A stretch of 64,000 bases of DNA from Solirubrobacteraceae bacterium (GCA_035570415.1 DATMLP010000009.1:10644-74643), one strand, 5' to 3'. Shown: positions 17,135 through 45,915, numbered from the stretch's first letter. Notes: generated by a model not told the origin, from the sequence alone. Made by a program: numbers and translations.

Positions 17135-20100
17135 TCACCCAAGCAGTTCGCGCGCGGTGCCAAGCTGGAGCTGGTAGCGACCCCGGTATTCTTCGGCGGG
17201 CCGCTCGATTTCGTCGATCCATTCACCGTAATTGGAGGGGTCGGAGCCGAAGTGGCGGTCGGCCATCTGGCTCTTGACGGCGAGCGCCTGGTCGATGAAC
17301 CACTTCAACTGCAACGCCGGGTCGTGCGGGTAGCCGGCGTATTGGCCGTTGTCCCACACGCTGGTGCGCATCTGGAAGTACCCGAGCGAGTCGCGGTCGC
17401 CGAAGGAGTCGTTGTGGAGACTCGACTCGACCAGCGATGCCATCACCGGCAGCTCGCGCGGCAGCCCGTGCTTCTGCGCAATGTCGCCCATCCACTGCGC
17501 GATGTCGGCCTTCGGCGCATTGTCGCCGGGGTAGGGGATCGTGCCCGACGCCAGGTCGCTCGCTCCGACGACGGCGTCGGCCCCTCCCCCAGTGCCAGGT
17601 GCGGCTTCGGCGGCGCCGCCTGGGCCGGGCGCTGTGTCGGCGGCGCTCCCCGTGCCGGGGGCCGCTTCGGCGGCGCTCCCGCTTCCCGGCGCGCCCGCCG
17701 CGGTGGAAGCGCCGGCGGGCTGAGTCGCGGCTTGGTCGACGGCAGCCTGAACCTGGGGCGAGGCATTCGAAGACGGCTGGACCGCCTGGAGGAATTTCAC
17801 CGTGTGCAGGGAGGCCCCCGAAACGTGCGGCGACGCGGCACTGAAAACACCCGTACCCGATTGGACGGGTGGCACTCCAGCGACCTGGGCGCCACCGGGT
17901 ACTTCGGCGCCGGAGGCCACCGCCGCGCCCGCGCCCGGCGCGGGGCTGCCGGCTGCGGCCGCGCCAGCGCCAGGAGCGCCACCGGGGATCGCGGCGGCAC
18001 CGGGCACAGACGCCGCCGATGGGACCACCGAGGGCGAGGACGCACCTCCTGGAGCACCACCAGCCGCAACCACGCCTCCCGGAGCGCCACCGGGCGCCTG
18101 GACCTGAGGGAGCACGGCAGCATACTGCGGTCGCACCGCACCGGTTACTTCGCTCGGCGAATAGGTGTGTTCGGTGACGTTGTTTTCGTAGTTGCCCGCG
18201 ATCGTGTGGATCCCTTCGCCGTCGACCTTCACGACCATCGCCACGTGCTCGCTGCCGCCGAAAGTGACGAGATCGCCAGGGCGCACGGCGCCGATCGGCA
18301 GGATGCCTTTCTCAAAAGGCCCTTCGCCGTTCTTGGCCATCTCCAGGATCGAAGCGACCGACGCGATCGAGTCGGGCACTTTCAGCCCCGCGTGCTCCAG
18401 CGCGTGGCCGACGAAAATGCCACACCAGGGAGCGCCGTGGAAGCCGAACGCCCCCTCGAAGCGATTGAGCGCGGGCCCCACGTTTTCGCCTTCGCTCTCC
18501 GGCAGCTTGTGCAGCATCGAGTGCGCCCACGAAAGGGCCACGGCGGCGCCGCTCTCGCTACGCGCCTGCGGAGCCGCAAATGCCTCCACCGCTGGGGCCG
18601 GCGTGGCGTAAACCGCCCCGTCGGGTGACGCGGAGATCGCGGGCGAGGCCGCGCCCGCGCCAGGTGACGCGGAGAACGCAGCAGCGCCGGGCGCCGCTCC
18701 GGCGGGAGGAGCCTGGTAGTCGCCGACCGAGGTGAACGCGAGATGCAGTCGATTCTCGTGCTGGGCGTCGGTGAAAAAGCCCTGCGACTGGATTGGCCAC
18801 GGCGTGCCGATCTCGCTGGGGCGCACGCCCGGTTCCAGCGCCGCGATCTCCGTGATCAGATCGCGGGCGGCCACATTGCCGGGGCCGACCGGCTGTCCGT
18901 CGACGGAGACGATGTCGATCGCCTGCGCGTGCACAGGTTCGGTGGTCGTCTCGATGTCGCCGATCACGATGTTGTGGTGGGCCACCGCACTGTCGAGCAC
19001 CGACACGATCCGGGGGTCAACGTTGCCCTGCGCGAAGATCGTCCGCACGTCCGGCGGCAGCGCCAGGTGCGGGCTGTTCAACAGCTCGGCCAGCCCGGGC
19101 GAGCCCGTTCCGGTGGTGGGAAGGGCGGGCGCCTGCCCCGCGAGGTCTGCCACCTGAGCCGCCGCTGCGCCGCCGCCGGCCGGAGTTTGCGCGGGTTCCG
19201 GCCAGACCGGCACGGCGCCGCCGGCGGCCGGCTGCGCGCCCGGCGCCGGGGGGGTTGGCGGTGGCACCGGCGTCCCGGCCCCACCGCCTGCCGGCGCGCC
19301 TCCCCCACCGACGGGCTGCGATGGAGCGGGCGTCCCGGCCGGTGCCACTTCCGGTGCGCCGTGAGCGGGTACGGGGGTTACCGGCGCTCCCACCGCGGGT
19401 GCCTCGCCCGCGTTCGCGGCGGCAGCCGCGCCGCTGGGTGGGGGTGGCCCCCACGAGGAGCCACCCGAGCCGCTCGCGATCGAGCCGCCCGAAGCTGGAG
19501 CACCCGGTGACGCCGCCGCCTCGGCACCGCCCGGCGTGGCCGTCCCCGCGACGGCGCCACCAGGGGTGGACGCTCCCGGTGCGCCACCCGGAGCGGATGC
19601 GGCGGCCGACGTCGAGGCGGCGCCCCCCGGTGCCGCGCCCGCCGGTGCAGCTGTGCCAGCCGCGCCCCCCGGCGCGGCCGTGCCCGCGGCGGCGCCACCG
19701 GGTGCGCCAGTACCTGGCGCGGCCCCCGGGGCGCCCGACCCCGAGCTCTGCCCGGCCTCGTGGGCGAGTGCCGAGGCGCGCTCGGCCGCGCCCACCGGGT
19801 TGTGCGAGGCGCCGCTCAGCGGGTTCTCGGCGCGCAGCTCGGAGTGCAGGCTGCTGGCGGGGTGAAGCGGGTTGACGCCGCGCAGCGCGCGCTCGCCGGC
19901 GGCGCCCAGGTTGCCTTTGAGCAGTCCGTGCTCAACCAGGCCGTGCAGCTCCACCACGCCGATGCCCTCGGCCGCGACGGCCATCACCACGCCGGCGAGG
20001 CTCGACTTCGACTCGCGCACTTCCAGGGTGTGCATCGATTTGCCGCCCTCGCCGAGCTCGGTGGCGAGGTCGGCGAGGCCGAGCGTGCGGCAGGCGCCGG

Positions 20101-20218
20101 CGGGGTCCTTGCGGAACTCGGCGCGGAAATGGGCGTCCGCCAGCAGCCGTTCGATCAGCTGGCCGGCCTTCTGCGCGTAATCGTCAGCGGATGACACGGT
20201 TGACCTCCGTCGTCCCAT
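17135..20218 (-). CDS. Multi-domain peptidoglycan hydrolase (LAS/M15-like + CHAP + SLT-like lytic transglycosylase), no signal peptide seen
   Basis: CHAP module: GAPWCGIFVGHALEHAG...GDLVTFGGSEHVAMVV...IHTIAGNYENNVTEH. C-terminal SLT-like module: MASLVESSLHNDSFGDRDSLGYFQM. The central module with VHAQAIDIV...DAQHENRLHLAF resembles a LAS metallopeptidase (tentative). Long Ala/Pro/Gly linkers join the modules. The track start at 20659 runs out of frame over the upstream gene. I use the ATG at 20218 (MGRRRSTVSSADDYAQKAG). Confidence 0.75.
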   Translation of the reverse strand: MGRRRSTVSSADDYAQKAGQLIERLLADAHFRAEFRKDPAGACRTLGLADLATELGEGGKSMHTLEVRESKSSLAGVVMAVAAEGIGVVELHGLVEHGLLKGNLGAAGERALRGVNPLHPASSLHSELRAENPLSGASHNPVGAAERASALAHEAGQSSGSGAPGAAPGTGAPGGAAAGTAAPGGAAGTAAPAGAAPGGAASTSAAASAPGGAPGASTPGGAVAGTATPGGAEAAASPGAPASGGSIASGSGGSSWGPPPPSGAAAAANAGEAPAVGAPVTPVPAHGAPEVAPAGTPAPSQPVGGGGAPAGGGAGTPVPPPTPPAPGAQPAAGGAVPVWPEPAQTPAGGGAAAAQVADLAGQAPALPTTGTGSPGLAELLNSPHLALPPDVRTIFAQGNVDPRIVSVLDSAVAHHNIVIGDIETTTEPVHAQAIDIVSVDGQPVGPGNVAARDLITEIAALEPGVRPSEIGTPWPIQSQGFFTDAQHENRLHLAFTSVGDYQAPPAGAAPGAAAFSASPGAGAASPAISASPDGAVYATPAPAVEAFAAPQARSESGAAVALSWAHSMLHKLPESEGENVGPALNRFEGAFGFHGAPWCGIFVGHALEHAGLKVPDSIASVASILEMAKNGEGPFEKGILPIGAVRPGDLVTFGGSEHVAMVVKVDGEGIHTIAGNYENNVTEHTYSPSEVTGAVRPQYAAVLPQVQAPGGAPGGVVAAGGAPGGASSPSVVPSAASVPGAAAIPGGAPGAGAAAAGSPAPGAGAAVASGAEVPGGAQVAGVPPVQSGTGVFSAASPHVSGASLHTVKFLQAVQPSSNASPQVQAAVDQAATQPAGASTAAGAPGSGSAAEAAPGTGSAADTAPGPGGAAEAAPGTGGGADAVVGASDLASGTIPYPGDNAPKADIAQWMGDIAQKHGLPRELPVMASLVESSLHNDSFGDRDSLGYFQMRTSVWDNGQYAGYPHDPALQLKWFIDQALAVKSQMADRHFGSDPSNYGEWIDEIERPAEEYRGRYQLQLGTARELLG

Positions 20219-22181
20219 AGCGTAGCCGCCGCCACAGCGGCAGCCCGAGCGTGAGCCCGATGGGGATGAACAGCACGACCCAGAAGAGAATGAACACCGC
20301 GACCACCGCGCCGGGTGGCGCGATATGCACGAGCCGGTCGTAGTAGCGCGTGGAGAAGACCACCACGAACGCAGCCGCCAACACGGTCCACACCAGCGCG
20401 AAGATGCCGTAGCGCAGCAGCACCGGGGAGTCCTCGGCGCTTGGAGCGGCGCCGGACAGCCGCTGGGAGAGCTGGCGGCGGGCGCGCTGGCGCAGGCCCG
20501 GCTCGCGCAGCACGTCGACGAGGATGTGGTAGCCGTCGCGGTCGAGGAACGGGTTGAGGTTGAAGAACGCGCCGACGTAGGAGCCGAACGCGAGCTGGAA
20601 GAACACGTCGCGCACCGACCCCGCCGGCCACACCGCGCAGAGGAAGGAGAACAGCGCACCGAAGGAGAGGTCGGAGATCGGCCCGGCGGCGGAGATCACG
20701 ATGCGATGCGCGCGGGGCTCGAAATACGCCTCGGAGGTGTCGACGAAGGCGTAGGGGAACAGCAGGATCAACCGCAATCCGCCGCTGGCCGGCCGCCGGC
20801 CGTAGTGGACGAGCGCCATTCCGTGGGCCAGCTCGTGCACCATCACGAGGGCGAAGCGGCCGACGATGTAGACCGCGCCGCCGAGCACCAAACGGTTGGC
20901 GACGACAAACGGCGTGCCGTAGCGCGCGCCGACGATGTAGGAGAACGCGGCGAAGCCCGCGAGTGCAAACAGCGCGAGGAAGGTGAGCGTGAGCGGCGAG
21001 AAAAACAACCGGCCCCAGCGGCGGTAGGCACGTTCACAGCGCTCGCCCACCCAGTCGTAGGTGCGCTGGCGCGGCTGCAATATCCGCGCCAGACGGCTCC
21101 CGGAGGGCGCGGCTCCCGCCCTGTCGATCCTCGCCCCCTTCCTGGCCATCCGGCCCAGCTTCGCCTCGCCCTTCCCGATCTTCTGCATCCCCTTCGCCAG
21201 CGCCACGCGCTCCACCCCGCCGACCCCTCCTCCCGCCAGCGCCGCGCGCTCCATGCCAGATGCCAGCCCCTTACCTTCCTTGGCGGCACCGCCCACCCCG
21301 CCCTTGGCCGCACCTCCAGCGCCCGGACCACCGTACGCAGTACCACCCACGCCTCCTTGCACCGCGCCGCCCGCTCCCAAACCCGCCTGCCCCGCACCTC
21401 CCGCGGTCCCTGACGCGTGGCCATCCACCCCGACCACTCCGTCGAGCAGCCCCCTGTCCCCCAGCTCGGCGAGCAGGCGTGCGAGGCGGCCCGGGCCGGT
21501 TGGTCCGAGCGCGCGTTCGGCGGTGCCGAGCAGCTCCATCACGGTGTGGCTTCCGTCGAGCATTTCGAACAACGCCGCGTCCTCGGCGTCCATCCGCAGG
21601 AAGCCGCCGTCGCGCAGGTCGCGCAGCACGAAGCGCCGCTCGCCCTCGTCGGCGCCCAGCCGCTTGAGCGCCCAGCCGGAGCGCACGCGGGGCCGCATGC
21701 GGCCGTCCGGGATCGATCGGGCTCCCCCGGGTGCGCCGGGCGGGCTGGCGCCGGTGGCGGCGGCCGGACGCAGGCCGAGTTGGGTGGCGCCGACCGGCAT
21801 CACGACGGTCTCGCCCGCACCCGCCGGCAGCTCCTGTGCAAGCGGAGGCGGTGGGCCGTCGGAGTGGATCACGAGCATGACGTCGCCCACGCGGATCTCG
21901 CTGCCCACGCGAAGTGGCCGCGGCTCGGTGACCGCCGCGCCGTCGAGCAGCGTGCCGAAACGCGAGCCGGTGTCCTCCAGCAACGGCCCGGCAGGGCCGG
22001 GGAGGATGCGGGCGTGGGCGCGTGAGACGGTCGGGGCGAGAATCCGCACGGTGGCCTGCTCGCCGCGGCCGATCGTCAGCTCGCCCGCGATCGGCACCCG
22101 CGAGCCGTCCGGCAGCACCAGCACCAGTGACTCCGACGTGGCGGTGGCACCCGGCACGGAGAGCCTGCGGGTGTCAGCCAT
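20184..22181 (-). CDS. FHA-domain / M50-like membrane metalloprotease fusion
   Basis: N-terminal FHA (LTIGRGEQATVRILAPTVSRAHARI...GSRFGTLLDG...IRVGDVMLVI). Next a cNMP-binding-like segment (RFVLRDLRDGGFLRMDAEDAALFEMLDG), then a Gly-rich spacer. The C-terminal polytopic region carries HELAHGMALVHYG and FPYAFVDTSEAY (site-2-protease/M50-like). ATG with GGAG upstream. Confidence 0.75.
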   Translation of the reverse strand: MADTRRLSVPGATATSESLVLVLPDGSRVPIAGELTIGRGEQATVRILAPTVSRAHARILPGPAGPLLEDTGSRFGTLLDGAAVTEPRPLRVGSEIRVGDVMLVIHSDGPPPPLAQELPAGAGETVVMPVGATQLGLRPAAATGASPPGAPGGARSIPDGRMRPRVRSGWALKRLGADEGERRFVLRDLRDGGFLRMDAEDAALFEMLDGSHTVMELLGTAERALGPTGPGRLARLLAELGDRGLLDGVVGVDGHASGTAGGAGQAGLGAGGAVQGGVGGTAYGGPGAGGAAKGGVGGAAKEGKGLASGMERAALAGGGVGGVERVALAKGMQKIGKGEAKLGRMARKGARIDRAGAAPSGSRLARILQPRQRTYDWVGERCERAYRRWGRLFFSPLTLTFLALFALAGFAAFSYIVGARYGTPFVVANRLVLGGAVYIVGRFALVMVHELAHGMALVHYGRRPASGGLRLILLFPYAFVDTSEAYFEPRAHRIVISAAGPISDLSFGALFSFLCAVWPAGSVRDVFFQLAFGSYVGAFFNLNPFLDRDGYHILVDVLREPGLRQRARRQLSQRLSGAAPSAEDSPVLLRYGIFALVWTVLAAAFVVVFSTRYYDRLVHIAPPGAVVAVFILFWVVLFIPIGLTLGLPLWRRLRYGTTEVNRVIR

Positions 22182-22262
22182 GGAGCAGCTCCGGGGTCAC
22201 GGTGGCACCGGGCACAGGGCGCCGGCGGTCGCCAGAGAGCCGGCGGGTGTCAGCCATGGAGC
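22143..22262 (-). repeat. Duplicated copy of the FHA-gene start region, creating a 27-codon relay uORF
   Basis: The sequence ggtggcacc.ggcac...gagagcc.gcgggtgtcagccatggagc occurs at 22143-22186 and again at 22201-22262, the second time with an 18-nt insertion. Each copy carries ATGGCTGACACCCGC. Confidence 0.8.
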
Positions 22263-25613: not shown

Positions 25614-25620
25614 CGCTCTA

Positions 25621-33424: not shown

Positions 33425-33542
33425 CAACGGTCTCCCCCACACCCAGCCGCCGTGCCTCGGCCAGGAAGCGGCGACGGTCGGCGTGCTCGAGATCCAGCAG
33501 TGCGTCGAGCGACCAGTGGAAGCGACCCGCGAGGCTGGCCAT
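33417..33542 (-). CDS. Small conserved ORF (HWSLD..LDLEH..RRRF motif). Either standalone or the -1 frameshift extension of the upstream chaperone
   Basis: MASLAGRFHWSLDALLDLEHADRRRFLAEARRLGVGETVDG (41 aa). This is the C-terminal part of track ORF 33417..34001, whose upstream part overlaps the chaperone out of frame. Its only in-frame start, the ATG at 33542, has GGAG directly abutting it, which is poor spacing. Confidence 0.5.
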   Translation of the reverse strand: MASLAGRFHWSLDALLDLEHADRRRFLAEARRLGVGETVDG

Positions 33543-33574
33543 CTCCGCGAACAGCTCGCGCGGAGATGGCCGCG

Positions 33575-39513: not shown

Positions 39514-40454
39514 GCGACGCGGGCACGGCTGTCACGGTGGACACCGCGCAGCGGCTGGCGGAGGTCCGCCAGCGGTACCTCGAGGCGCTGGAACGGGGGG
39601 AGGAGTCGCTGATCGTCGAGCTCGCCCCGGGCTGCCTGGGGCTCGACCGGCCCCGCGCGCTCGGCAGCTGGGAGCTCGCCCCGGTGAACGCGACCGCCCC
39701 ACCGCCGATCGACGTGACGGTGCGCTGCTCGGAGGGGCTCTGCGTGCTGGCGCAGATCCCGGTGCGGATCGCCGCGCGGCGCGTGACGCTCGAACGCGTG
39801 GCGCTCGCCGGCGCCCGCGGCACCGCGCTCGGCGTGAGCGCCGAGCGGGAGCTCACGCTGCGCGATGTCACCGTGATGGGCAGCGTCGCGAGCCCACGCG
39901 ACCGCGCGGCGCTCGCCCTCTCCGCGGCAGGGAGCGCCGGCACCCGAGCGCACCTGGAGCGCGTCGTGGTGGGGCGCAACCAGGCGCGAGACGCGGCGCT
40001 CGGGTTGTACGCCGCAGCGGGGGCCTGGCTGGAGGACCTGCGCCTGGTGGATCTCGCCGTCGCGGGCGGCCGCGCCGACGCGCTGATCGCGATCGACGCG
40101 GTCCGCCGGCTGCGCGCGCAAGGCTGCACGTTCGGAACCGGTGCGGCCCGCGTGCTGCTGCGCCTGCTGCTGGCGGCCACCGACGCGGAGTTGAGCGGCT
40201 GCGCGCTGTCGGCGGGCGCCGGCGCGCTGCTCGAGATCTCAGAGCGTCAGCCGGCGGCCGGCGCGCCGCTGCGCCTGACCGGCCACTGCGCCGTGACCGC
40301 CCCGCTCGGCGAGCTGCCCGCGGGGGTCGTGGCGGACGACACGGTCAGCGTGGTCGACCCCACGGCCGTCGAGGGCCCGCTGGAGGCGGCGCTCGACCAG
40401 GCCGCCGAGCGCCTGATCGGCGTGGATGGGCGTCTGGAGCGGCTGCTGGGGTGA
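39510..40454 (+). CDS. Hypothetical protein translationally coupled to the calpain-like gene (Ala/Leu-rich, beta-helix-like periodicity)
   Basis: 314 aa. Its ATG overlaps the calpain-like stop (ATGA). Repeated segments such as RVTLERVALAGARGTALGVSAE / RELTLRDVTVMGSVAS / AHLERVVVGRNQAR / LEDLRLVDLAVAGGRA. No family recognised. Confidence 0.5.
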   Translation: MSDAGTAVTVDTAQRLAEVRQRYLEALERGEESLIVELAPGCLGLDRPRALGSWELAPVNATAPPPIDVTVRCSEGLCVLAQIPVRIAARRVTLERVALAGARGTALGVSAERELTLRDVTVMGSVASPRDRAALALSAAGSAGTRAHLERVVVGRNQARDAALGLYAAAGAWLEDLRLVDLAVAGGRADALIAIDAVRRLRAQGCTFGTGAARVLLRLLLAATDAELSGCALSAGAGALLEISERQPAAGAPLRLTGHCAVTAPLGELPAGVVADDTVSVVDPTAVEGPLEAALDQAAERLIGVDGRLERLLG

Positions 40455-40497: not shown

Positions 40498-41682
40498 TCA
40501 GTCGACAAGGAGCATGATGCGCTGCCACTTCGGGGGGAGTTGCGCGACTTCGGCCTCGATGATCGACATCCAGTCCATCATCGAGGCGCCGACCGTCTGC
40601 TGCTTCTTTTCGTCTTCGTGTTCGGGGATGAACTTGGGTTCGCGGAAGGAGATCAGCGAGCCGTCGGTTTCGGCCACGCCGAGGCGCCCGCCGGGCTGGC
40701 CGGGGGGCCCCCACAGACCGATGTCGACCATGTGTTTGCACAGCACCTCCTCGGTGCCGATGGCGTTCCGTGCGGAGAAGTGGGCGATCCAGATGTCCTG
40801 CTCGGTCTCGCGCCAGCTCGGCACGGTCACCTTGCGCCGCTCGCGCAGCTGGCGCAGCTCGGTGAGCAGGTCTTCGGCGCCGGCGAGGATCTCGTTGCCG
40901 GCGGCTTCCGCGGCGTCCAGCGCGGCCTGTTCGTCGGCGTCGAGCGCGCCGGAGTTGGGGGCGTTGGAGCCGATCGAGGTCGCGACGTCGACGGCCTTGT
41001 CGAGCACCATGTCACCCTGGTTGTGCACGTCGGCGACCTTGAACAGCAGCTCGTTGACGTGCTCGAGACTGTAGATCCGCAGCTCGTTGGGGTCCGCCAT
41101 CGCGGCCTCGCCGAGCTCTGTGTGCTCCTCGCCGCCCTCAAACGCTTTGAGGATCTTGCCGCTCTTCTCGATCTTCTCGCGCGCCTCGTCGAGCTCGTGG
41201 GCTTTCTCAACGATCTTCGCGAGCACGCTCACGGCCTCCTCCTCGGGGGCGGCGAACGCAAGCGCGAGGCTCGCGGCGGCGATCAGCGCCTCGGCGATCT
41301 CCTCGTTGTGGACGTCCTCCTCGTGCGCCTGGCCGACGACCACCTGGTGGATCTTGAAGCACTCGGCGTAGATCCCGTTGACGTAGTTGTAGTGGTCCTG
41401 AGTGCCCTTCATGATCTCGTTGGCCTCGCGCATGCGTTCGTGGAAGGTGGCCTGCATGCCCTTCACGCGCGCGGGGACCGCGGATGCGGCGCTCGGCGTG
41501 GGCAGACGCGGACCGCCCTCTTCGCGCTGGAGCATGCGCGTGACGGCGTCGTTGCCGGCGGTGCGCTGCAGCGTACCGAGGTCGATCGACCCCGACGCGG
41601 TCGACCCTCCGGAGCCGCGGGAGCCGCGCGTGACGGCGGGGGTGCGCGCGGCCCGGCGGGTGCTCAACAGTCTCCCCTTCAT
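40498..41682 (-). CDS. Hypothetical helical protein with N-terminal GNxA motif; candidate CIS cargo
   Basis: 394 aa. N-terminal LGTLQRTAGNDAVTRMLQREEG. The rest is Glu/Lys/His/Ile-rich and predicted helical. It appears less GC-rich by eye than its neighbours. No family recognised. Confidence 0.55.
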   Translation of the reverse strand: MKGRLLSTRRAARTPAVTRGSRGSGGSTASGSIDLGTLQRTAGNDAVTRMLQREEGGPRLPTPSAASAVPARVKGMQATFHERMREANEIMKGTQDHYNYVNGIYAECFKIHQVVVGQAHEEDVHNEEIAEALIAAASLALAFAAPEEEAVSVLAKIVEKAHELDEAREKIEKSGKILKAFEGGEEHTELGEAAMADPNELRIYSLEHVNELLFKVADVHNQGDMVLDKAVDVATSIGSNAPNSGALDADEQAALDAAEAAGNEILAGAEDLLTELRQLRERRKVTVPSWRETEQDIWIAHFSARNAIGTEEVLCKHMVDIGLWGPPGQPGGRLGVAETDGSLISFREPKFIPEHEDEKKQQTVGASMMDWMSIIEAEVAQLPPKWQRIMLLVD

Positions 41683-41728
41683 GGCGCCGGGCGAGCATAC
41701 ACGCCTGTGTGGGCGCCGATCGCAGACC

Positions 41729-43357
41729 TCACTGCTGTCCCCCTCCCGAGCCGGACCCGGCGCCGGCGGCGGCCTGGCGGATCACCGGTTCCCACCAGGG
41801 GTCGTCGGCGGGGTTGCAGATGAATTTGTCGACCAGGCTGGTGACCGCTTCCTGCTGGGGCGTGCCCTGCCCGCCCGGGCCGGCGGCGGGCTGTTCGGAT
41901 TGCGGCGCCTGTCCTTCGGCCGGCGTGGCCGGCGCCGCGGGAGCGGCTTCTTTGGATTCCTTGGGCATGGTTGACCACACTTCTTTGATCTTCGTACCGA
42001 TTTCCTTGTCGGCGAACACGGCGAGCGCACGGGAGACGGCGAACAGCGGGTTGTCGGGGGAGTCCTTGGCGATTTCGGAGTGGGTCGGCCCGGAGAGTTC
42101 TTTGCTCTGCGCCTGGGTCCCCGATTGGGTGGTGGCGGCGTCGGTGATGGGGCCGGTGAGGCTCGCGAGCGAGGGGACGGTGAAGCCGAACGCCTTCATC
42201 ACGACGTCCTCGCCGAACAGACTGCAGGCAAGGTCGACAAGCTGCATGAGATCGTTCACCGCGGCGGTGGCGAGCTTGGCGGCAAAGCCGGCGCCGGAGA
42301 GCGCTTCTTTGGCCTTCGCCAGCGTGGTGCCGTTGGCGCGCAGCGAACCCTTGATGAAGGTGCGGCGCAGTTCGCCGCTCGTCAGCTCGGTCTCCAGCGC
42401 CTCCACCATGCTCACGAAGTTGTTGGCGCCGGGCGCGTAGGTGCCGGTCTGGATCTGCATCCGCCCGCCGGGGGCCGGTTCGCTGGTTTCGACGCCCGGC
42501 GGGGGCCCGCTCCCGTCCTGCGTCGGCGTGAGCGACCCAGGGGTGTGGCCGAGCGTGGTCTTTTGCAGCTGGTCCAGCAGCGGCTTGATCGAGGGGTCGT
42601 CTTTGAGCGTGACGATGCAGACCTCGGTGAAGTTGGAGTGGGAGAAGTAGTCCTCGACCGCGTGCAGGCCGTTGCCGAGCGCCTGCATCCCTTCCGGCGT
42701 TTCGCCCTTTTCGACAGCCTGCCCGAGCATTTCCCGGGCGTGCATCTTGCCCTGCTCGATGTAGGGGGGCAGGCCGCTCTTGGCCGACGCCGCGAGAATT
42801 TCCAGGCCGGCGGCGCGCTGGCGTTCATAGGCCGCCTGCTGCTCGGGCGAGAGCTTGGCGAGCGCTTCTTCGGTTCCCCCGATGGCGCCCGGCGCGGGAT
42901 CGAGCTTCGGATCCTCGGCGGTGCCGCCGCCTTCGGGGTTGTCGAGGTGCTCGGAGGGCGCGTAGCCGCCGAGATCGGCGTCGGTGAGTTCGCGCCCGAA
43001 CTCACCGAGGGCGAGAATGTTCAGCAGCAGCATCAGCGCGGGTGGGCGCTTCCCAGCTTCCCCCATCTGCGAGAAGTCCCGCAGCCAGTTGCCGAAGTAG
43101 GTCGATTTCACCTGTTCGGGGGTGAACCCGGCTTCGCCGAGCCCCTGCTGCTCGATCCCGCCGTGCCCCGCCTCGCCCTGCTGGTAGCGGGCGAGCGCGG
43201 AGCGCCGGGGAGGCGCGGCATGCGAGCGCAGATGGCGAGCGAACGCCCGGTTTCCCACATGGCTGGGCAGTCCGATCGCGGGCATCTTGGTCACCGCCGG
43301 CGCGGGGGCGACCTCGCGGGCGGGGCTCTCGGTCTCGATCGTCTGGCTCTCTCTCAC
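41729..43357 (-). CDS. HET-C-like domain protein (phospholipase C / P1 nuclease-fold, tentative) with N-terminal GNxA motif; candidate CIS effector
   Basis: 542 aa. GTG start overlaps the ATPase stop (GTGA). N-terminal LPSHVGNRAFARHLRS. Motifs STYFGNWLRDFSQ and GNGLHAVEDYFSHSNFTE match my memory of the Het-C domain. Confidence 0.55.
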   Translation of the reverse strand: MRESQTIETESPAREVAPAPAVTKMPAIGLPSHVGNRAFARHLRSHAAPPRRSALARYQQGEAGHGGIEQQGLGEAGFTPEQVKSTYFGNWLRDFSQMGEAGKRPPALMLLLNILALGEFGRELTDADLGGYAPSEHLDNPEGGGTAEDPKLDPAPGAIGGTEEALAKLSPEQQAAYERQRAAGLEILAASAKSGLPPYIEQGKMHAREMLGQAVEKGETPEGMQALGNGLHAVEDYFSHSNFTEVCIVTLKDDPSIKPLLDQLQKTTLGHTPGSLTPTQDGSGPPPGVETSEPAPGGRMQIQTGTYAPGANNFVSMVEALETELTSGELRRTFIKGSLRANGTTLAKAKEALSGAGFAAKLATAAVNDLMQLVDLACSLFGEDVVMKAFGFTVPSLASLTGPITDAATTQSGTQAQSKELSGPTHSEIAKDSPDNPLFAVSRALAVFADKEIGTKIKEVWSTMPKESKEAAPAAPATPAEGQAPQSEQPAAGPGGQGTPQQEAVTSLVDKFICNPADDPWWEPVIRQAAAGAGSGSGGGQQ

Positions 43358-45333
43358 GACACACCCTCGCGCACCTGGATGGCGGCATGGAAGCGCTCGA
43401 AGTCGCTCTCCAGCGTGAGCCGCCCGAGCTTGCCGTACTCGACCGCGACGGCGCGCACGAGGTGCTCCATCGTGATCGTGCCGCCATCGTCGGCGGCGAG
43501 GAAAGCGGCGGCGAGCGAGCAGTTGCGGATGCCCCCGCCGGAGAGCTTGAACTGGTTGGCGAGGAACTCGAGGTCGAGATCCTCCGCGAGCGGTGCGGTG
43601 GCGGGCAGCAAGAGGCGCCAGATGCGCACGCGGTCCTCGGGCTCGGGGAACGGGAAGTCGATCACGAAGTCCAGGCGACGCAGAAAGGCGTCGTCGATGT
43701 TGCGGCGGAAGTTGGTGGCTAGCACCACGGCGCCGGGGTAGGACTCCATCTTCTGCAGCAGGTAGGCGACCTCGATGTTGGCGTAACGGTCATGCGCGTC
43801 GGAGACCTCCGAGCGCTTGCCGAACAGCGCGTCGGCCTCGTCGAAGAAGAGGATCGCGTTGGAGCCCTCGGCGGCGGTGAAGATGCGGTCGAGGTTCTTC
43901 TCGGTCTCACCGATGTACTTGGATACGACGGTGGCCAGATCGAGGCGGAACAGCTCCAGGCCGAGCCCGTGCGCGAGCACCTGCGCGGCCATCGTCTTGC
44001 CGGTGCCCGACTCCCCGGCGAACAGCACCTTCAGCCCCTGTGTGCGCGCCACGGCGCGCTCGTAGCCCCACTCGGAGAGCACCAGGTCGCGGTGGCGCAG
44101 GTAGGCGGAGATCGAGCGCAGCAGCTCCAGCTGCCGTGGCGGCAGCACGAGGTCATCCCAGGTGAAGCCGGGCGGCAGCCGCGTGGCCAGTTCGCCGAGG
44201 CGGGTGCTGGAGGCCTGGCGGGCGCCGGCGTGCAGGTCCTCGCTCTCGATTCGCGCGGCCGCGCGGGCGGTGGCGTTCAGCCGCGCGACCTCGCAGGCGG
44301 TGGCGATCTGAGCCGCGCTGAGGCGGAACTTGGCGGCAACCTCATGCACCTCGTGCGCACTTCCGAAGGCCCGCCAGAGCGCGATGCGCTCGGCGAAGCC
44401 GGGCATCGCCGTCTCCACCACCATCACCGTCTGCTCGTCGAGGTGCAGCGCCGCATCGCGCGTGGGAGCGCAGATCAGGGGACGCTCGCCCCACGCATCC
44501 AGCGCACGGGCGACGCGCGCGCAGTCGGCTGGGCCGAGCTGCTCCAGGCGATCCAAGCACAGCCGCCGCCCCTCCAGGCGGGCGGCAAGCGTGGCGTCGG
44601 CGATCGCCTCCGGGGCGGCGAGCGCCTCGACGTCGAGCAACAGCAGCCCCCGCTCCAGCGCGGCGGCCAAGAGCAGCGGCGCGTCGGGCCCGGCGACCAG
44701 CAACGCCAGGCGGCTGTCGGCGGCGAGCAGGCTGCGCAGCTCCTCGATCGCGACGGCGTGGGAGCCGGCGGCGACCGCCGCCGCGACTGCCCCATCGAGG
44801 TCGACGCGCCGCACGCGCCCATCGCTGGCTGGCATGTCCAGACGCGCCCCGAGCAGCTGCGCGGCGAGCCGGTCGGGCACCTTCACCAGGCGGTCGGCCA
44901 GCGGCCCCGGGGCATCCCCGTCGAGCAGCCGGATCGCGCCGGCGCGACGCAGCGGAGCGTCGTGGGCGAAGCACGCGAGGATCTCATCGCGGGGCCGGCG
45001 CTCGTCGGCCAGCAGCCGCGCCACCAGTCGCGGGGAGGCGAGCTTGCGGGTGACGTCGTCGTGCAGGTAGGCAAGCAGCCGCCCATAGCGCGGGCTGAGC
45101 TCGGGGGCGGCGCATAGCGCGAGCACCTCGCGGTCGAGCTCGCCGAGCGCGAGCGCCTGCGCGGCGGTCCCGATGCGCGCGTCGAGGTCCTCGATCGGCG
45201 TGGCGTGGGCGAGCGAGCGAGCGAGATCGTCGGAGATGTAGAGGCCGCGGAACGGGTCGGCGGGGTTGGGGTCGGTAGCGGCGATCGCGTCGACCGCCGT
45301 GCGGATGCGGGCGTCGATCTCATCGAAGCGCAT
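43354..45333 (-). CDS. CIS-associated AAA+ ATPase (Afp15-like)
   Basis: 659 aa. Walker A GESGTGKTMAA, Walker B ILFFDEADALFGKR, and YIGETEKNL typical of classic AAA. A long N-terminal non-ATPase region, as in eCIS ATPases. Confidence 0.85.
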   Translation of the reverse strand: MRFDEIDARIRTAVDAIAATDPNPADPFRGLYISDDLARSLAHATPIEDLDARIGTAAQALALGELDREVLALCAAPELSPRYGRLLAYLHDDVTRKLASPRLVARLLADERRPRDEILACFAHDAPLRRAGAIRLLDGDAPGPLADRLVKVPDRLAAQLLGARLDMPASDGRVRRVDLDGAVAAAVAAGSHAVAIEELRSLLAADSRLALLVAGPDAPLLLAAALERGLLLLDVEALAAPEAIADATLAARLEGRRLCLDRLEQLGPADCARVARALDAWGERPLICAPTRDAALHLDEQTVMVVETAMPGFAERIALWRAFGSAHEVHEVAAKFRLSAAQIATACEVARLNATARAAARIESEDLHAGARQASSTRLGELATRLPPGFTWDDLVLPPRQLELLRSISAYLRHRDLVLSEWGYERAVARTQGLKVLFAGESGTGKTMAAQVLAHGLGLELFRLDLATVVSKYIGETEKNLDRIFTAAEGSNAILFFDEADALFGKRSEVSDAHDRYANIEVAYLLQKMESYPGAVVLATNFRRNIDDAFLRRLDFVIDFPFPEPEDRVRIWRLLLPATAPLAEDLDLEFLANQFKLSGGGIRNCSLAAAFLAADDGGTITMEHLVRAVAVEYGKLGRLTLESDFERFHAAIQVREGVS

Positions 45334-45345
45334 CTGCGCCCCTCG

Positions 45346-45915
45346 TCAGCCCGTCAGCTCGTCGGCGACGGTCTCGGCCTCGGTCTCCTGCGCGTCGCCA
45401 GGCTCGGAGACGGTGAGCGGCCCGCTGGTGGGGGCGCCGCGCTGCTGCACCACGTGGGTGAGCTCGTGCGCGAGCAGCCGGTCGCCCTCGCCGCTGCCGG
45501 GGCGGTACTCGCCAGTGGCGAAGAACACGTCGCTGCCAGTGGTGAAGGCGCGCGCGGAGACCGAGCGGGCGAGCGCGTCGGCGCCAGCGTCGGTGTGCAC
45601 CCGCACGTCGGCCAGCGGATCGCCGAGCTGCCCGGCGAAGCGCTCGCGCGAGCGCCCGTCGAGCGCACCGCCGCCGCCGCGCCTGCGGGCGATCGTGGCC
45701 TGCACCTCCGGGTGGACGGTGCCGTCAGTCAGGATGCCCGTGCCCTCACGGGAGATCAGCCCGCCGAACGCCCGGTTGCCGACCTCGGAGGCCAGGCGCT
45801 CGCGAGGATCGGGCTCGGGAGCCTCGCGCTGAGACTCCGGCGCGGCCGGCGCGAAGATGCTCTCGGCTTCGCCTTCGCGCTCGACATCCCCCTGGCGATG
45901 GTCGCTCACCGCCAA
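45346..45915 (-). CDS. DUF4157 (zincin HExxH) domain protein, eCIS-associated type
   Basis: 189 aa. LDGRSRERFAGQLGDPLADVRVHTDAGADALARSVSARAFTTGSDVFFATGEY...LLAHELTHVVQQ is the DUF4157 pattern. N-terminal RLASEVGNRAFGGLIS motif. Confidence 0.85.
   Translation of the reverse strand: MAVSDHRQGDVEREGEAESIFAPAAPESQREAPEPDPRERLASEVGNRAFGGLISREGTGILTDGTVHPEVQATIARRRGGGGALDGRSRERFAGQLGDPLADVRVHTDAGADALARSVSARAFTTGSDVFFATGEYRPGSGEGDRLLAHELTHVVQQRGAPTSGPLTVSEPGDAQETEAETVADELTG

What the first reader, a model, noticed from the sequence alone, without database searches (positions are those of the whole stretch)
17135..45915. Phage-tail-like contractile injection system locus with P2-like gene order, no capsid genes, no tail fibre and no PAAR
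Read directly: cap (DUF4255), sheath, tube, chaperone with a small -1-frame ORF, tape-measure-position protein, second tube, LysM tube initiator, VgrG-like spike, gp25-like, baseplate J and tail protein I. These lie on one strand, mostly with ATGA/GTGA overlaps. An AAA+ ATPase and a DUF4157 zincin lie upstream. From established knowledge, this component set defines eCIS/CIS particles (Afp/PVC class), and DUF4157 and the AAA+ ATPase are eCIS hallmarks. Three things are unusual here. (a) The sheath-tube-chaperone-TMP-hub order mirrors P2 rather than the afp1-16 order. (b) No PAAR, Afp13-type fibre or receptor-binding protein is visible. (c) The baseplate genes run straight into an envelope-sensor, protease and hydrolase trio. 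Lack of fibres is reminiscent of cytoplasmic CIS reported in Streptomyces, from my recollection. The mode of action (extracellular or intracellular/lytic) is open.
Basis: partly seen in the sequence, partly recalled or inferred. Interest (0 to 1): 0.8.

Follow-up and report, generated by a model that had tools for sequence, protein, structure and literature searches.

The report
Streptomyces-type injection system with cell-wall module
This is a phage-tail-like contractile injection system of the fibreless kind already studied in Streptomyces, here in a soil Solirubrobacterales bacterium, and its one new feature is a conserved trio of genes after the baseplate (a cell-wall-binding membrane protein, a membrane protease and a wall-hydrolase-like protein) that may link firing to the state of the cell wall.

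Summary
Every structural call passes at HMM level: cap, sheath, tube, chaperone, second tube, LysM tube initiator, VgrG, gp25, Baseplate_J, Tail_P2_I, AAA+ and DUF4157. The 64 kb window has no capsid, portal, terminase, integrase, PAAR/DUF4280 or fibre gene.

The locus is not a new CIS class. Sheath, Cis11 and Cis12 best match the solved Streptomyces coelicolor CIS (class IId), and the core gene order equals a Streptomyces locus. The "P2-like" order and the lack of fibre and PAAR are therefore published hallmarks of that class. The host is a Solirubrobacterales bacterium (Thermoleophilia).

The new part is the trio after cis12:
- An 881 aa bitopic protein. Its cytoplasmic tandem Ig module plus TM helix is homologous to Sco4256-4258 (E 3e-49). 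Its outer part is 3 PASTA repeats plus a TolB-like propeller.
- An FHA-domain intramembrane metalloprotease (M50/daptide-protease-like).
- A translationally coupled protein with an NHLP-like leader and a CHAP/NlpC-P60-like domain.

Of 47 related loci, 45 keep the first gene and 32 keep all three. The trio stays with cis11-cis12 when the cluster is split. I found no paper describing it.

Verdict: new variant of a known kind, of moderate interest. The proposed mechanism, a cell-wall-gated cytoplasmic CIS, is inferred and not shown.

The parts
45346..45909 (-). Small DUF4157/eCIS_core protein, the Sle2-type cargo adaptor. It has an N-terminal GNRAF motif at residue 46.
   Evidence: Pfam eCIS_core E 3e-29. 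26% identity to the Streptomyces eCIS_core protein in L082. Motif.
43354..45333 (-). AAA+ ATPase (Cis15/Afp15 type) with an N-terminal winged-helix domain.
   Evidence: Pfam AAA E 5e-25 and WHD E 6e-20. 49% identity to the L082 AAA+ protein.
41729..43357 (-). Het-C-like protein, a candidate cargo/effector. GNRAF motif at residue 35.
   Evidence: Pfam Het-C E 2e-21. Motif. Not conserved in other loci.
40498..41682 (-). 394 aa protein of unknown family, a candidate cargo. N-terminal LQRTAGNDAV motif, like that of Sle1/Sle2.
   Evidence: No family hits. Motif.
37396..39513 (+). Calpain-like cysteine protease, a candidate cargo. It is divergent from the cap gene. GNSAI motif at residue 42.
   Evidence: Pfam Peptidase_C2 E 3e-8 over the active-site Cys region. 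Conserved next to the cap gene in L002. Motif.
39510..40454 (+). 314 aa unknown protein whose start overlaps the calpain-like gene's stop. It may be a partner or immunity protein; this is inference only.
   Evidence: No family hits. The 4 nt overlap is read from the coordinates.
36430..37317 (-). Cap / tail terminator (Cis16) with a C-terminal CarboxypepD_reg domain.
   Evidence: Pfam Pvc16_N E 1e-32 and CarboxypepD_reg E 5e-8.
34551..36152 (-). Sheath (Cis2).
   Evidence: PDB 8bky_A/9gtp E 1e-167 over the full length. 50% identity to the L082 sheath.
33979..34419 (-). Inner tube (Cis1a).
   Evidence: Pfam Phage_T4_gp19 E 6e-34.
33575..33949 (-). Tail-assembly-chaperone-like protein with a C-terminal zinc ribbon.
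   Evidence: PHROG 508 E 6e-10. 50% identity to L082 p170. 53-86% identity across the loci.
33417..33581 (-). Small DUF6760 ORF in the -1 frame, overlapping the chaperone stop codon. In the window the junction ATG reads ATA, so the first ATG gives a 41 aa product (33417-33542).
   Evidence: Pfam DUF6760 E 1e-5. The peptide is conserved in the same frame in 47 loci. The same gene is present in Streptomyces L082.
31031..33424 (-). Tape-measure-position protein, 797 aa. Its middle is P/A/S-rich and low in complexity. Only a short N-terminal stretch and the C-terminal ~38 aa are conserved.
   Evidence: No family hit. tblastn hits only residues 92-130 and 766-803. The gene at this position varies from about 0.95 to 3.7 kb among loci.
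30418..30972 (-). Second tube / tube initiator (Cis1b, Afp5-like).
   Evidence: Pfam Phage_T4_gp19 E 9e-30.
29698..30387 (-). Tube initiator Cis7 (CIS_tube + LysM).
   Evidence: Pfam CIS_tube E 3e-25 and LysM E 1e-5.
28028..29701 (-). VgrG-like spike (Cis8).
   Evidence: Pfam Phage_base_V E 8e-26 and Phage_GPD E 1e-9.
27612..28031 (-). gp25-like baseplate protein (Cis9).
   Evidence: Pfam GPW_gp25 E 5e-24.
25621..27615 (-). Baseplate wedge J (Cis11).
   Evidence: PDB 9gtp_1K E 1.5e-138 over the full length. Pfam Baseplate_J E 7e-18.
24960..25613 (-). Baseplate wedge Tail_P2_I (Cis12).
   Evidence: PDB 9gtp_E E 4e-23. Pfam Tail_P2_I E 5e-10.
22250..24895 (-). 881 aa bitopic membrane protein at the fibre/CisA position. 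Domains in order: zinc ribbon (1-26), disordered linker, tandem PapD/ASH-like Ig domains (112-339), TM helix (347-365), 3 PASTA repeats, TolB-like propeller.
   Evidence: Profile of the N-terminal module against the three L082 homologues of Sco4256-58: E 3e-49. blastp 29% identity, E 5e-24. AF2 model pLDDT 85.5. Foldseek finds ASH/PapD-type Ig folds. PASTA E 1e-25. Present in 45 of 47 related loci.
20184..22181 (-). N-terminal FHA domain followed by a 4-TM intramembrane metalloprotease (HELAH and NPFLDRDG motifs).
   Evidence: FHA E 5e-11. Peptidase_M50 E 1e-5, which is below the Pfam cutoff. NCBIfam daptide intramembrane metalloprotease E 2e-32 and YydH/LiaK E 5e-9, both below their cutoffs. 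Motifs read from the sequence. Present in 35 of 47 loci. 3 of 3 sampled homologues are CIS-linked.
17135..20221 (-). 1028 aa multi-domain protein. Its start overlaps the protease gene's end. Domains in order: NHLP-like leader ending in ELGEGG, a hydrophobic segment, a conserved unknown domain (residues 520-650 of the long ORF), a CHAP/NlpC-P60-like domain, and a conserved all-alpha C-terminal domain. There is no Sec/Tat signal peptide.
   Evidence: TIGR04509 NHLP leader E 2e-7. TIGR02594 E 5e-9. CHAP E 4e-4. phrog_1259 tail lysozyme E 1e-4. The L084 orthologue carries NLPC_P60. Domain conservation.

Best explanation
The locus encodes a class IId contractile injection system, orthologous to the cytoplasmic CIS of Streptomyces coelicolor, in a Solirubrobacterales (Thermoleophilia) bacterium.

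Shown by homology. The structural operon (cap to Cis12) builds a fibreless, PAAR-less sheath-tube-baseplate particle. A separate operon supplies the AAA+ ATPase and a small DUF4157 adaptor.

Inferred steps.
1. The Het-C-like, calpain-like and 394 aa proteins are cargo. They share an N-terminal '...GNxA(V/F/I)...' motif with the DUF4157 protein and with the Streptomyces Sle1/Sle2 homologues.
2. The particle does not leave the cell by means of fibres. It works at the producer's own cytoplasmic membrane. The docking partner would be the 881 aa protein encoded right after cis12. Its cytoplasmic tandem Ig module is the module of Sco4256-4258, which CIS-Sc needs for function. Its ectodomain (3 PASTA repeats plus a TolB-like propeller) would bind peptidoglycan or lipid II.
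3. The FHA-domain intramembrane metalloprotease is controlled by Ser/Thr phosphorylation. It processes a membrane-embedded substrate. The most likely substrate is the translationally coupled protein with an NHLP-like leader and a CHAP/NlpC-P60-like domain, cut at or near its ELGxGG/hydrophobic segment. The anchor protein itself is a less likely substrate.
4. Cell-wall damage is thereby coupled to firing and to local wall hydrolysis, which leads to regulated death or lysis of the producer.
For: Class membership.
- Sheath E 1e-167, Cis11 E 1.5e-138 and Cis12 E 4e-23 against the CIS-Sc structures 8bky/9gtp.
- The core gene order is the same as in Streptomyces locus L082, including the chaperone-like gene and DUF6760.
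- No fibre, PAAR or phage head genes.

Anchor protein.
- The N-terminal module is homologous to the three L082 proteins matching Sco4256-58 (E 3e-49).
- Deleting sco4256-58 abolishes stress-induced death (PMC10066040).
- CisA sits at the same gene position, is a bitopic membrane protein needed for firing, and is predicted to bind Cis11 (PMC12237407).

Linkage of the trio.
- 45/47, 35/47 and 32/47 related loci keep gene 1, gene 2 and all three.
- The order is fixed.
- In relatives the genes overlap by 4, 8 and 14 nt.
- In split clusters, cis11-cis12 and the trio stay together as one unit.
- All 3 sampled FHA-M50 homologues are CIS-linked.
- Ser/Thr kinase genes lie next to the module in L084 and L086.

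Protease-substrate idea.
- The protease domain is most like RiPP leader peptidases (daptide, YydH/LiaK).
- The next gene starts with an NHLP-type leader.

Cargo motif. It occurs 4 times in 20,429 residues, always at residues 35-46 of the four accessory proteins. It is also present in the Streptomyces Sle1 and Sle2 homologues.
Against: - No experiment or localisation data exist for this lineage. A cytoplasmic mode of action is transferred from Streptomyces at only ~50% sheath identity.
- Solirubrobacterales are, from my knowledge, unicellular rods. The developmental cell-death rationale used for filamentous Streptomyces may not apply.
- Casu et al. read Sco4256-58 as luminal effectors and not as anchors.
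- Homology to CisA itself could not be tested.
- The M50, NHLP and CHAP hits are all below their curated cutoffs.
- Two conserved domains of the third protein have no assignable function. My SLT and LAS readings of them failed every test.
- FHA-M50 is missing from about a quarter of related loci, so it is not essential to the particle.
- No kinase gene lies in this window.
Confidence: 0.45

Rival explanations
1. Extracellular CIS or tailocin with a lysis cassette. Particles are released by lysis of the producer. The trio is the release module: the signal-less hydrolase acts like an endolysin, and the two membrane proteins control its access to the wall.
For: [quoted passage not shown]
- Relatives carry NLPC_P60 or Phage_lysozyme2 genes at the same place.
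- The RBD catalogue (PMC12923769) argues that many Actinomycetota CIS are extracellular after all.
Against: - No fibre or receptor-binding protein is present, so a released particle has nothing to bind a target with.
- The closest solved relative is not released from cells (PMC10066040).
- No holin-like gene was recognised.
- The first trio gene belongs to a family needed for CIS-Sc function itself, not for release.
- The trio stays with cis11-cis12, not with the operon end, in split clusters.
Confidence: 0.2
2. A T6SS-like outward-firing machine of a monoderm. The 881 aa protein anchors the baseplate at the inner face of the membrane. The system fires through the producer's own wall into neighbouring cells. 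The hydrolase opens the peptidoglycan locally, like a virion-associated lysin.
For: - A membrane anchor is encoded at the fibre position, with a peptidoglycan-binding ectodomain.
- The third protein has weak similarity to phage tail lysozyme and tape-measure lytic segments (phrog_1259 E 1e-4, phrog_10030 E 4e-4).
- The candidate effectors (Het-C-like, calpain-like) look like anti-cell toxins. One of them has a possible immunity partner (314 aa, overlapping start).
Against: - No ClpV-type recycling ATPase and no trans-envelope complex were found.
- CIS-Sc, the orthologue, kills the producer and not its neighbours (PMC10066040).
- The PHROG hits are weak.
Confidence: 0.15
3. The trio is an independent cell-envelope stress or RiPP-like processing system. 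It merely neighbours the CIS cluster and has no functional link to it.
For: - The tandem Ig + TM module is a very large family (7329 cluster representatives). It also occurs fused to kinases and FHA domains outside any visible CIS context.
- FHA-M50 is absent from about 25% of related loci.
- The protease and the leader resemble RiPP machinery.
Against: - The gene order is fixed, and starts and stops overlap from cis12 through the third gene, across loci whose Cis11 is only 51-81% identical.
- The trio stays linked to cis11-cis12 in split clusters.
- All sampled FHA-M50 homologues are CIS-linked.
- The Sco4256 family is CIS-specific in Streptomyces.
Confidence: 0.12
4. Defective prophage tail module (P2-like myovirus remnant).
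For: The gene order resembles a myovirus tail module. The chaperone-like protein matches a phage family.
Against: - No head, portal, terminase, integrase or att-like features occur in 64 kb.
- The eCIS hallmarks DUF4157, AAA+ and Pvc16_N are present.
- The same cluster was found in all 80 loci kept out of 446 relatives across Thermoleophilia and other phyla.
- The flanks are housekeeping genes, including hopanoid synthesis.
Confidence: 0.02

Closest known systems
Streptomyces coelicolor CIS-Sc / S. lividans SLP (dbeCIS class IId; Casu 2023, Vladimirov 2023, Casu 2025, Nagakubo 2026)
   Same: - Orthologous sheath (50% identity), Cis11, Cis12, gp25, AAA+, chaperone-like protein and DUF6760.
- The same core gene order.
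- No Afp13 fibre and no recognisable Afp14. No PAAR, as in S. coelicolor.
- A small DUF4157 adaptor.
- A Sco4256-family membrane protein.
- A bitopic membrane protein directly after cis12.
   Different: - The host is a Thermoleophilia bacterium, presumably a unicellular rod, and not a filamentous actinomycete.
- The gene after cis12 is not a recognisable CisA. It is a Sco4256-family protein with an added N-terminal zinc ribbon and a PASTA x3 + propeller ectodomain in place of Ricin/ChW.
- It is followed by an FHA-M50 protease and a leader-bearing CHAP-like protein. Neither is mentioned for Streptomyces.
- The cap gene sits directly before the sheath gene, not before the AAA+ gene.
- The cargo set differs (Het-C-like, calpain-like).
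CisA (SCO4242), membrane adaptor of CIS-Sc
   Same: The same gene position (after cis12). The same topology: cytoplasmic N-terminus with a disordered stretch and a Cys/Zn element, a single TM helix, and a carbohydrate- or substrate-binding ectodomain.
   Different: Sequence homology was not tested, because no CisA sequence was reachable. The folded cytoplasmic domain here is the Sco4256-type tandem Ig. The zinc ribbon is at the extreme N-terminus rather than next to the TM helix. The ectodomain is PASTA plus propeller.
Afp / PVC / AlgoCIS extracellular CIS (class I)
   Same: The same set of core Pfam families, together with the AAA+ and DUF4157 hallmarks.
   Different: - Gene order.
- No fibre (Afp13), no PAAR (Afp10) and a single sheath gene.
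- Tail_P2_I wedge partner.
- Sheath similarity is much lower (E 1e-48 to 1e-53, against 1e-167 for CIS-Sc).
Anabaena thylakoid-anchored tCIS (7b5h)
   Same: It is assembled in the cytoplasm, attached to an internal membrane through membrane-bound baseplate appendages, and linked to stress-induced lysis.
   Different: It belongs to a different CIS clade (sheath E 1e-56). Its anchor is the 'crown'/eBAP4-type protein, not an Ig-TM-PASTA protein.
Site-2 / RiPP-type intramembrane metalloproteases (M50; daptide MpaP-type, YydH/LiaK) and PknB-type PASTA sensors
   Same: HExxH inside a TM helix plus the NxxPxxxxDG motif. A leader-bearing gene lies immediately downstream. The TM + PASTA region is most like that of Stk1/PknB kinases (E 1e-25).
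   Different: An N-terminal FHA domain is fused to the protease. The 'precursor' is a 1028 aa multi-domain protein and not a short peptide. The PASTA protein has no kinase domain.

Membership tests
Class IId CIS (Streptomyces CIS-Sc type) | The sheath is orthologous to Cis2 rather than to the Afp/PVC sheaths. | tested here: met
   8bky_A/9gtp E 1e-167 over the full length, against Afp/PVC at 1e-48 to 1e-53. 50% identity.
Class IId CIS (Streptomyces CIS-Sc type) | Baseplate wedge built from Cis11 (Baseplate_J) and Cis12 (Tail_P2_I). | tested here: met
   9gtp_1K E 1.5e-138 and 9gtp_E E 4e-23. These are effectively the only PDB relatives: the sole other Cis11 hit is a weak 8kea_b match (E 6e-5), and Cis12 has none.
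Class IId CIS (Streptomyces CIS-Sc type) | Core gene order: sheath, tube, chaperone-like, DUF6760, P/A-rich protein, Cis1b, Cis7, Cis8, Cis9, Cis11, Cis12. | tested here: met
   Compared gene by gene with Streptomyces locus L082. L082 ends inside cis11, so cis12 and cisA were taken from the papers.
Class IId CIS (Streptomyces CIS-Sc type) | No Afp13-type fibre and no typical Afp14 tape measure. PAAR is optional. | tested here: met
   No such Pfam, PHROG or NCBIfam hits. No free coding space. No DUF4280.
Class IId CIS (Streptomyces CIS-Sc type) | A Sco4256-family membrane protein is present in the cluster. | tested here: met
   Profile E 3e-49 and blastp E 5e-24 against the three L082 homologues.
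Class IId CIS (Streptomyces CIS-Sc type) | A CisA homologue lies downstream of cis12. | tested here: inconclusive
   The position is occupied by a bitopic protein of like topology. No CisA sequence was available for comparison. CisA is absent from 45 of 120 class IId genomes anyway.
Class IId CIS (Streptomyces CIS-Sc type) | Particles stay in the cytoplasm and mediate death of the producer. | not testable with these tools
   This needs cryo-ET and physiology.
Afp/PVC-type extracellular CIS | A tail fibre (Afp13) with a baseplate-anchor domain is encoded after the wedge genes. | tested here: not met
   The gene after Tail_P2_I has a TM helix and Ig/PASTA domains. There is no DUF6519 (eBAP5) hit. 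The eBAP3 profile is not in the libraries, so that one is untested.
Afp/PVC-type extracellular CIS | PAAR tip (Afp10) and the afp1-16 gene order with several sheath paralogues. | tested here: not met
   One sheath gene, no PAAR or DUF4280, and a different order.
Prophage / P2-like tail module | Linked head, portal, terminase, integrase or lysis genes. | tested here: not met
   None in the 64 kb window.
Type VI secretion system | TssB/C sheath, TssJLM membrane complex and ClpV. | tested here: not met
   No such domains in any called gene.
Site-2 protease / M50 intramembrane metalloprotease | HExxH within a TM helix plus the NxxPxxxxDG motif. A family HMM score above the curated cutoff. | tested here: inconclusive
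   Both motifs are present (HELAH, NPFLDRDG). Pfam M50 scores 25.4 bits against a cutoff of 27.2. NCBIfam daptide protease scores 113 bits against a cutoff of 300. It is related to the family but not a curated member.
NlpC/P60-CHAP peptidoglycan hydrolases | A papain-like Cys-His core. A family HMM score above the curated cutoff. | tested here: inconclusive
   CHAP 21.2 bits against 26. TIGR02594 36 bits against 70.6. The Cys (PWCG) and His (SEHVAMV) are present. The L084 orthologue has an NLPC_P60 hit on record.
PknB-type PASTA sensor kinase | Cytoplasmic Ser/Thr kinase domain, TM helix and PASTA repeats. | tested here: not met
   The TM helix and 3 PASTA repeats match (E 1e-25). No kinase domain is present; the tandem Ig module takes its place.

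The most novel reading that the evidence does not exclude
The trio is an integrated trigger for a contractile machine.
- The PASTA/propeller ectodomain of a baseplate-docking membrane protein reads peptidoglycan or lipid II damage.
- A phospho-regulated FHA-S2P protease then performs intramembrane proteolysis, either of the anchor or of leader-bearing wall hydrolases.
- This both licenses firing of the cytoplasmic CIS and opens the wall.

This would explain why lipid II-binding nisin triggers CIS-Sc. It would also recast the Streptomyces Sco4256-58 'effectors' as membrane docking receptors.
Probability: 0.2. Interest if true: 0.8.

Novelty: new variant of a known kind. Interest (0 to 1): 0.55.

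Why it matters
How a cytoplasmic CIS finds the membrane, and what signal makes it fire, are open questions in the Streptomyces work. CisA is required for firing, but its mechanism and its trigger are unknown.

This Thermoleophilia variant places three things in one conserved, translationally coupled block right after the wedge genes:
- a member of the functionally required Sco4256 family, carrying a peptidoglycan-binding PASTA ectodomain;
- a phospho-peptide-binding intramembrane protease;
- a wall-hydrolase-like protein.

That gives a concrete, testable hypothesis: cell-wall status acts through regulated proteolysis to cause firing or lysis. It also gives an alternative reading of Sco4256-58 as membrane receptors. 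A cultured carrier is available for testing (Solirubrobacter phytolaccae KCTC 29190).

The locus also extends class IId CIS to abundant, mostly uncultured soil Thermoleophilia, which are presumably unicellular. That questions the link between this class and multicellular development. If the trio turns out to be only a lysis cassette or a neighbouring system, the locus is an ordinary new member of class IId.

Tried and rejected
1. Lytic transglycosylase reading of the conserved C-terminal domain of the third protein, made by eye from an 'ES...GYFQM' motif. It is not supported and I dropped it.
   - No Pfam hit for it or for 8 homologues.
   - No hit in a PDB profile search.
   - hhalign against the E. 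coli Slt70 catalytic domain gave probability 0.1.
   - The single-sequence AF2 model had pLDDT 47, too poor for a fold search.

2. LAS/M15 metallopeptidase reading of the domain at residues 520-650. Distant homologues have SxHxxGxxxD...HxDHxH, and the window copy has lost it. There is no Pfam or PDB support, so it remains an eye-level hint only.

3. Programmed -1 frameshift from the chaperone gene. I consider it less likely than a separate coupled gene. Most loci have an ATG or GTG at the junction overlapping the stop codon. The family (DUF6760) is called as its own gene in Streptomyces. In this window the junction ATG reads ATA, so a frameshift or an internal start remains possible here.

4. 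A metagenome scan for FHA-M50 contexts returned only one 3.3 kb contig. I used the protein search plus three context look-ups instead.

5. The Foldseek search of the N-terminal module gave only generic Ig/ASH/PapD folds. There was no TssK-like or phage-RBP 'shoulder' match, so I did not file the module under eBAP3.

6. The promoter and terminator scan was uninformative.

7. Prophage and T6SS readings were rejected for lack of their defining genes.

8. Literature.
   - No paper in the library combines 'contractile injection' with 'PASTA domain'.
   - No listed paper combines it with Solirubrobacter, Thermoleophilia or Conexibacter.
   - There is no mention of these taxa, PASTA or FHA in the Vladimirov supplements.
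   - There is no mention of FHA, PASTA or metalloprotease in the CisA paper.

Full report
**Gene map.** The window is about 70% G+C, so raw ORF lists are swamped by spurious frames. I called genes by third-position GC bias and checked them against the depositor's gene calls for the same contig. That contig is a 95 kb ENA metagenome contig.

The locus has three transcription units.
- Unit 1, minus strand: DUF4157 (45909-45346), AAA+ (45333-43354), Het-C-like (43357-41729), 394 aa unknown (41682-40498).
- Unit 2, plus strand, convergent on unit 1 and divergent from unit 3: calpain-like protease (37396-39513), 314 aa unknown (39510-40454).
- Unit 3, minus strand, from 37317 to 17135: cap, sheath, tube, 124 aa protein, small ORF, 797 aa low-complexity protein, second tube, CIS_tube+LysM, VgrG, gp25, Baseplate_J, Tail_P2_I, and then the three extra genes.

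**Check of the observation.** The 124 aa 'chaperone' matches PHROG 508, tail assembly chaperone (E 6e-10). No gene in the 64 kb window has a capsid, portal, terminase or integrase domain. The flanks encode hopanoid synthesis, an MprF-like protein, glycosyltransferases, an ABC exporter, regulators and a giant NHL/RHS protein. No PAAR or DUF4280 domain is present, and the operon has no unassigned coding space that could hide one. AAA+/DUF4157 are separated from the cap by four genes, two of them on the other strand. Only some junctions are overlaps. The first 146 codons of the '1174 aa' ORF are an out-of-frame overlap with the preceding gene.

**Which CIS it is.** The sheath matches PDB 8bky/9gtp and 8bl4/9gts over its full length (E 1e-167 and 6e-165). 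Afp, PVC, AlgoCIS and tCIS score between 1e-48 and 1e-57. 9gtp is the S. coelicolor CIS-Sc particle. Its Baseplate_J chain and its Cis12 chain are the only strong PDB relatives of the window's Cis11 (E 1.5e-138; one other weak hit, 8kea_b, E 6e-5) and Cis12 (E 4e-23, the sole hit).

I rebuilt the S. coelicolor sheath sequence from the printed alignment. I used it to find a Streptomyces sheath 95% identical to it and fetched its locus, L082. L082 has the same core order: sheath, tube, a 170 aa protein 50% identical to the window's 124 aa protein, DUF6760, a P/A-rich protein, second tube, Cis7, VgrG, gp25, J.

The papers state that these clusters lack an Afp13 fibre and a typical Afp14 tape measure, that PAAR occurs only in S. 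venezuelae, and that no fibre density is seen in the structure (PMC10066040; PMC12237407). So points (a) and (b) of the finding are known properties of dbeCIS class IId.

**Host.** A scan of one genome per species with Cis11 gave 446 relatives. The best 80 are almost all Solirubrobacterales or other Thermoleophilia MAGs. The closest is 81% identical, and the cultured Solirubrobacter phytolaccae is 64% identical. More distant relatives (39-44%) come from Chloroflexota, Acidimicrobiia, Dormibacterota and others. I found no paper linking CIS with these taxa.

**The small ORF.** The -1-frame ORF after the chaperone-like gene is real. Its peptide (RPSPxxLxxExAxLAxHxHWxLDxILDLEHxDRRRFL) is conserved in the same relative frame in 47 loci, including other phyla. 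It belongs to DUF6760. In most loci an ATG or GTG overlaps the chaperone's stop codon, which indicates a separate coupled gene. In the window this codon reads ATA, and the next ATG gives 41 aa.

**The tape-measure-position protein.** The 797 aa protein that follows has no family. Only a short N-terminal stretch and its last ~38 residues are conserved. The gene at this position varies from about 0.95 to 3.7 kb among loci. It is therefore not a recognisable tape measure.

**Trio, gene 1 (22250-24895, 881 aa).** An alignment-based AF2 model of residues 1-366 (pLDDT 85.5) shows these parts:
- a zinc ribbon (1-26);
- a disordered linker;
- two beta-sandwich domains (112-339);
- a TM helix (347-364).

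Foldseek finds ASH/PapD-type Ig folds. The rest of the protein is 3 PASTA repeats and a TolB-like propeller.

A profile of the Ig-Ig-TM module hits the three paralogous L082 membrane proteins, which carry Ricin or ChW C-termini and correspond to Sco4256-4258. The hits are at E 3e-49 over the whole module, and blastp gives 29% identity at E 5e-24. Vladimirov et al. described that family as a pilus-chaperone-like domain, a TM helix and a variable lectin or toxin domain. Casu et al. showed that the triple deletion empties the tube lumen and abolishes nisin-induced death.

In Streptomyces the gene after cis12 is CisA. It is also a bitopic membrane protein. It is needed for contraction and is predicted to bind Cis11. 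Here the Sco4256-type protein takes that position. I could not obtain a CisA sequence, so homology to CisA is untested.

The module family is very large: 7329 cluster representatives at E <= 1e-3. It also occurs fused to Ser/Thr kinases and FHA domains.

**Trio, gene 2 (20184-22181, 665 aa).** It has an N-terminal FHA domain, a low-complexity linker and four hydrophobic helices. These carry HELAH and NPFLDRDG, the two site-2-protease motifs. Its best named relatives are RiPP leader peptidases: the daptide intramembrane metalloprotease (E 2e-32) and YydH/LiaK (E 5e-9). Both are well below the equivalog cutoffs.

**Trio, gene 3 (17135-20221, 1028 aa).** Its start overlaps the end of gene 2. It opens with an NHLP-type leader-like helix domain (TIGR04509, E 2e-7). 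A conserved ELGxGG and a hydrophobic stretch follow. Three conserved domains then follow, separated by P/A/G-rich linkers. The middle one is CHAP/NlpC-P60-like: CHAP E 4e-4, TIGR02594 E 5e-9, phage tail lysozyme PHROG E 1e-4. The other two remain unassigned. My transglycosylase and LAS readings of them failed every test. The protein has no Sec/Tat signal peptide.

**Is the trio part of the system?** I counted 47 loci with Cis11 at least 50% identical and at least 8 kb of downstream sequence.
- 45 have the Ig-TM-PASTA gene.
- 35 have FHA-M50.
- 32 have all three.

The order is always the same. In relatives the genes overlap: cis12 to gene 1 by 4 nt, gene 1 to gene 2 by 8 nt, gene 2 to gene 3 by 14 nt.

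In nine loci the cluster is split. There, cis11-cis12-trio forms one unit, divergent from DUF4157-AAA+...cap-sheath, and a DUF4280 (PAAR-like) gene appears. All three FHA-M50 homologues whose contexts I sampled sit behind cis11-cis12 and the PASTA gene. Two of them have Ser/Thr kinase genes nearby, and NLPC_P60 or Phage_lysozyme2 genes follow.

Ten loci replace genes 2 and 3 with a DUF4157 gene. Distant phyla keep at most the Ig-TM module. Gene 1 is therefore near-universal in this lineage, and genes 2 and 3 are a frequent add-on.

**Cargo.** The pattern GN.A[LIVFM] occurs four times in the 20,429 residues encoded by the window. All four are at residues 35-46 of the DUF4157, Het-C-like, 394 aa and calpain-like proteins. 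The L082 proteins matching Sle2 (LQNQAGNAAV) and Sle1 (MASLQAQAGNRAV) carry it too. Nagakubo et al. showed that Sle2 binds the N-terminal region of Sle1 and the tube initiator. By inference, the three window proteins are cargo recruited in the same way. The intervening genes differ in other loci, as expected for variable effectors.

**Mechanism.** Shown by homology: the particle and its class. Inferred: the working site is the producer's own membrane, gene 1 is the docking partner, the PASTA/propeller ectodomain reads the cell wall, FHA-M50 is a phospho-regulated processing step acting on the leader-bearing gene 3 product or on the anchor, and wall hydrolysis accompanies firing. Nisin, which triggers CIS-Sc, targets lipid II, and PASTA domains bind lipid II or muropeptides. 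Both statements come from my own knowledge, and they make the link attractive but unproven. The rivals are a lysis cassette for an extracellular particle, a T6SS-like outward-firing system, or an unrelated neighbouring system. They are weighed in the report sections.

**Verdict.** This is a genuine class IId CIS. Two of its three 'unusual' traits are already known. The third is a conserved accessory module that I did not find described in the literature. The novelty grade is new variant of a known kind, and the interest is moderate (0.55).

Noticed in passing
window 45346-45909, 41729-43357, 40498-41682 (all -), 37396-39513 (+); L082 6884-7528 and 7641-9680: The N-terminal motif '...GNxA(V/F/I)...' (fuller form LQxxAGNxAVxxLLQR) occurs only 4 times in the window's 20,429 encoded residues. 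All four are at residues 35-46 of the DUF4157 protein and three neighbouring accessory proteins. The Streptomyces Sle1 and Sle2 homologues carry it too. It may be a class IId cargo or adaptor recognition signal. I did not find it described in the papers read.
   Followed up: partly
window 33575-33581 (junction of the chaperone-like gene and DUF6760): In most related loci the DUF6760 gene starts with an ATG or GTG overlapping the chaperone stop codon. In this window that codon reads ATA, so the product is either N-terminally shortened (41 aa), made by a -1 shift on GGGGGAA, or initiated at a non-standard codon.
   Followed up: partly
L025, L029, L044, L046, L047, L048, L050, L054, L085 (e.g. 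L085 4342-4677): A sub-lineage has a split cluster. cis11-cis12-trio forms its own unit, divergent from DUF4157-AAA+...cap-sheath. Only these loci carry a 111 aa DUF4280 (PAAR-like) gene between the two units. Where their VgrG and gp25 genes lie was not determined.
   Followed up: partly
window 45967-47907, 47911-48408, 48415-50364 (-): Two paralogous (38% identity) Vgb-lyase/SGL-type beta-propeller proteins carry Sec-type signal peptides and a shared Cys-rich C-terminal domain (TWTFGWTRKYT...GKGC). A small TM protein lies between them. The group abuts the DUF4157 gene. Related propeller genes recur inside or beside CIS loci (L022, L029, L048, L050, L054). L086 likewise has SGL/lactonase-type propeller genes between cis12 and the PASTA gene, though their relation to the window's pair was not tested. 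Their role is unknown.
   Followed up: partly
window 50742-51143 (+), inside the 50309-52291 LPG_synthase_TM gene: The N-terminal part of the MprF-like (LPG_synthase_TM) protein contains a CHAP-like domain 37% identical to the one in the third trio protein. This is an unusual fusion of a wall-hydrolase-like domain to a lipid-modifying membrane domain.
   Followed up: no
window 1-17000: The left flank has a lower G+C (60-67%, against 70-76% in the CIS locus). It holds a truncated giant NHL/RHS-repeat protein of more than 2168 aa (2-6505), two IclR regulators, a DUF2600 protein and an FtsX/ABC exporter with a PadR regulator.
   Followed up: no
window 52284-60756: A hopanoid biosynthesis block lies close to the CIS locus: an HpnH-type radical SAM enzyme with DUF3463, two squalene/phytoene synthase genes and a squalene-hopene cyclase.
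   Followed up: no
P0122 (1201 aa), P0178 (1661 aa): The Sco4256-type tandem Ig module also occurs in several copies fused to a Ser/Thr kinase plus FHA domain, or to three FHA domains. This hints that the module belongs to a wider phospho-signalling network at the membrane.
   Followed up: partly
window 18695-19114 (residues 520-650 of the long ORF); alignment A3: This domain is conserved and often duplicated in related loci. Distant homologues show a LAS-metallopeptidase-like pattern (SxHxxGxxxD ... HxDHxH), which the window copy has lost. No profile or PDB search supports any assignment.
   Followed up: partly
window 31031-33424 and the equivalent gene in L004, L013, L024, L066, L082: The gene at the tape-measure position varies from about 0.95 to 3.7 kb between loci, although the sheath and tube proteins are well conserved. 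Only its last ~35-38 residues are conserved, and by eye they resemble the C-terminus of the Streptomyces 246 aa protein. If it sets particle length, lengths would differ several-fold between species.
   Followed up: no
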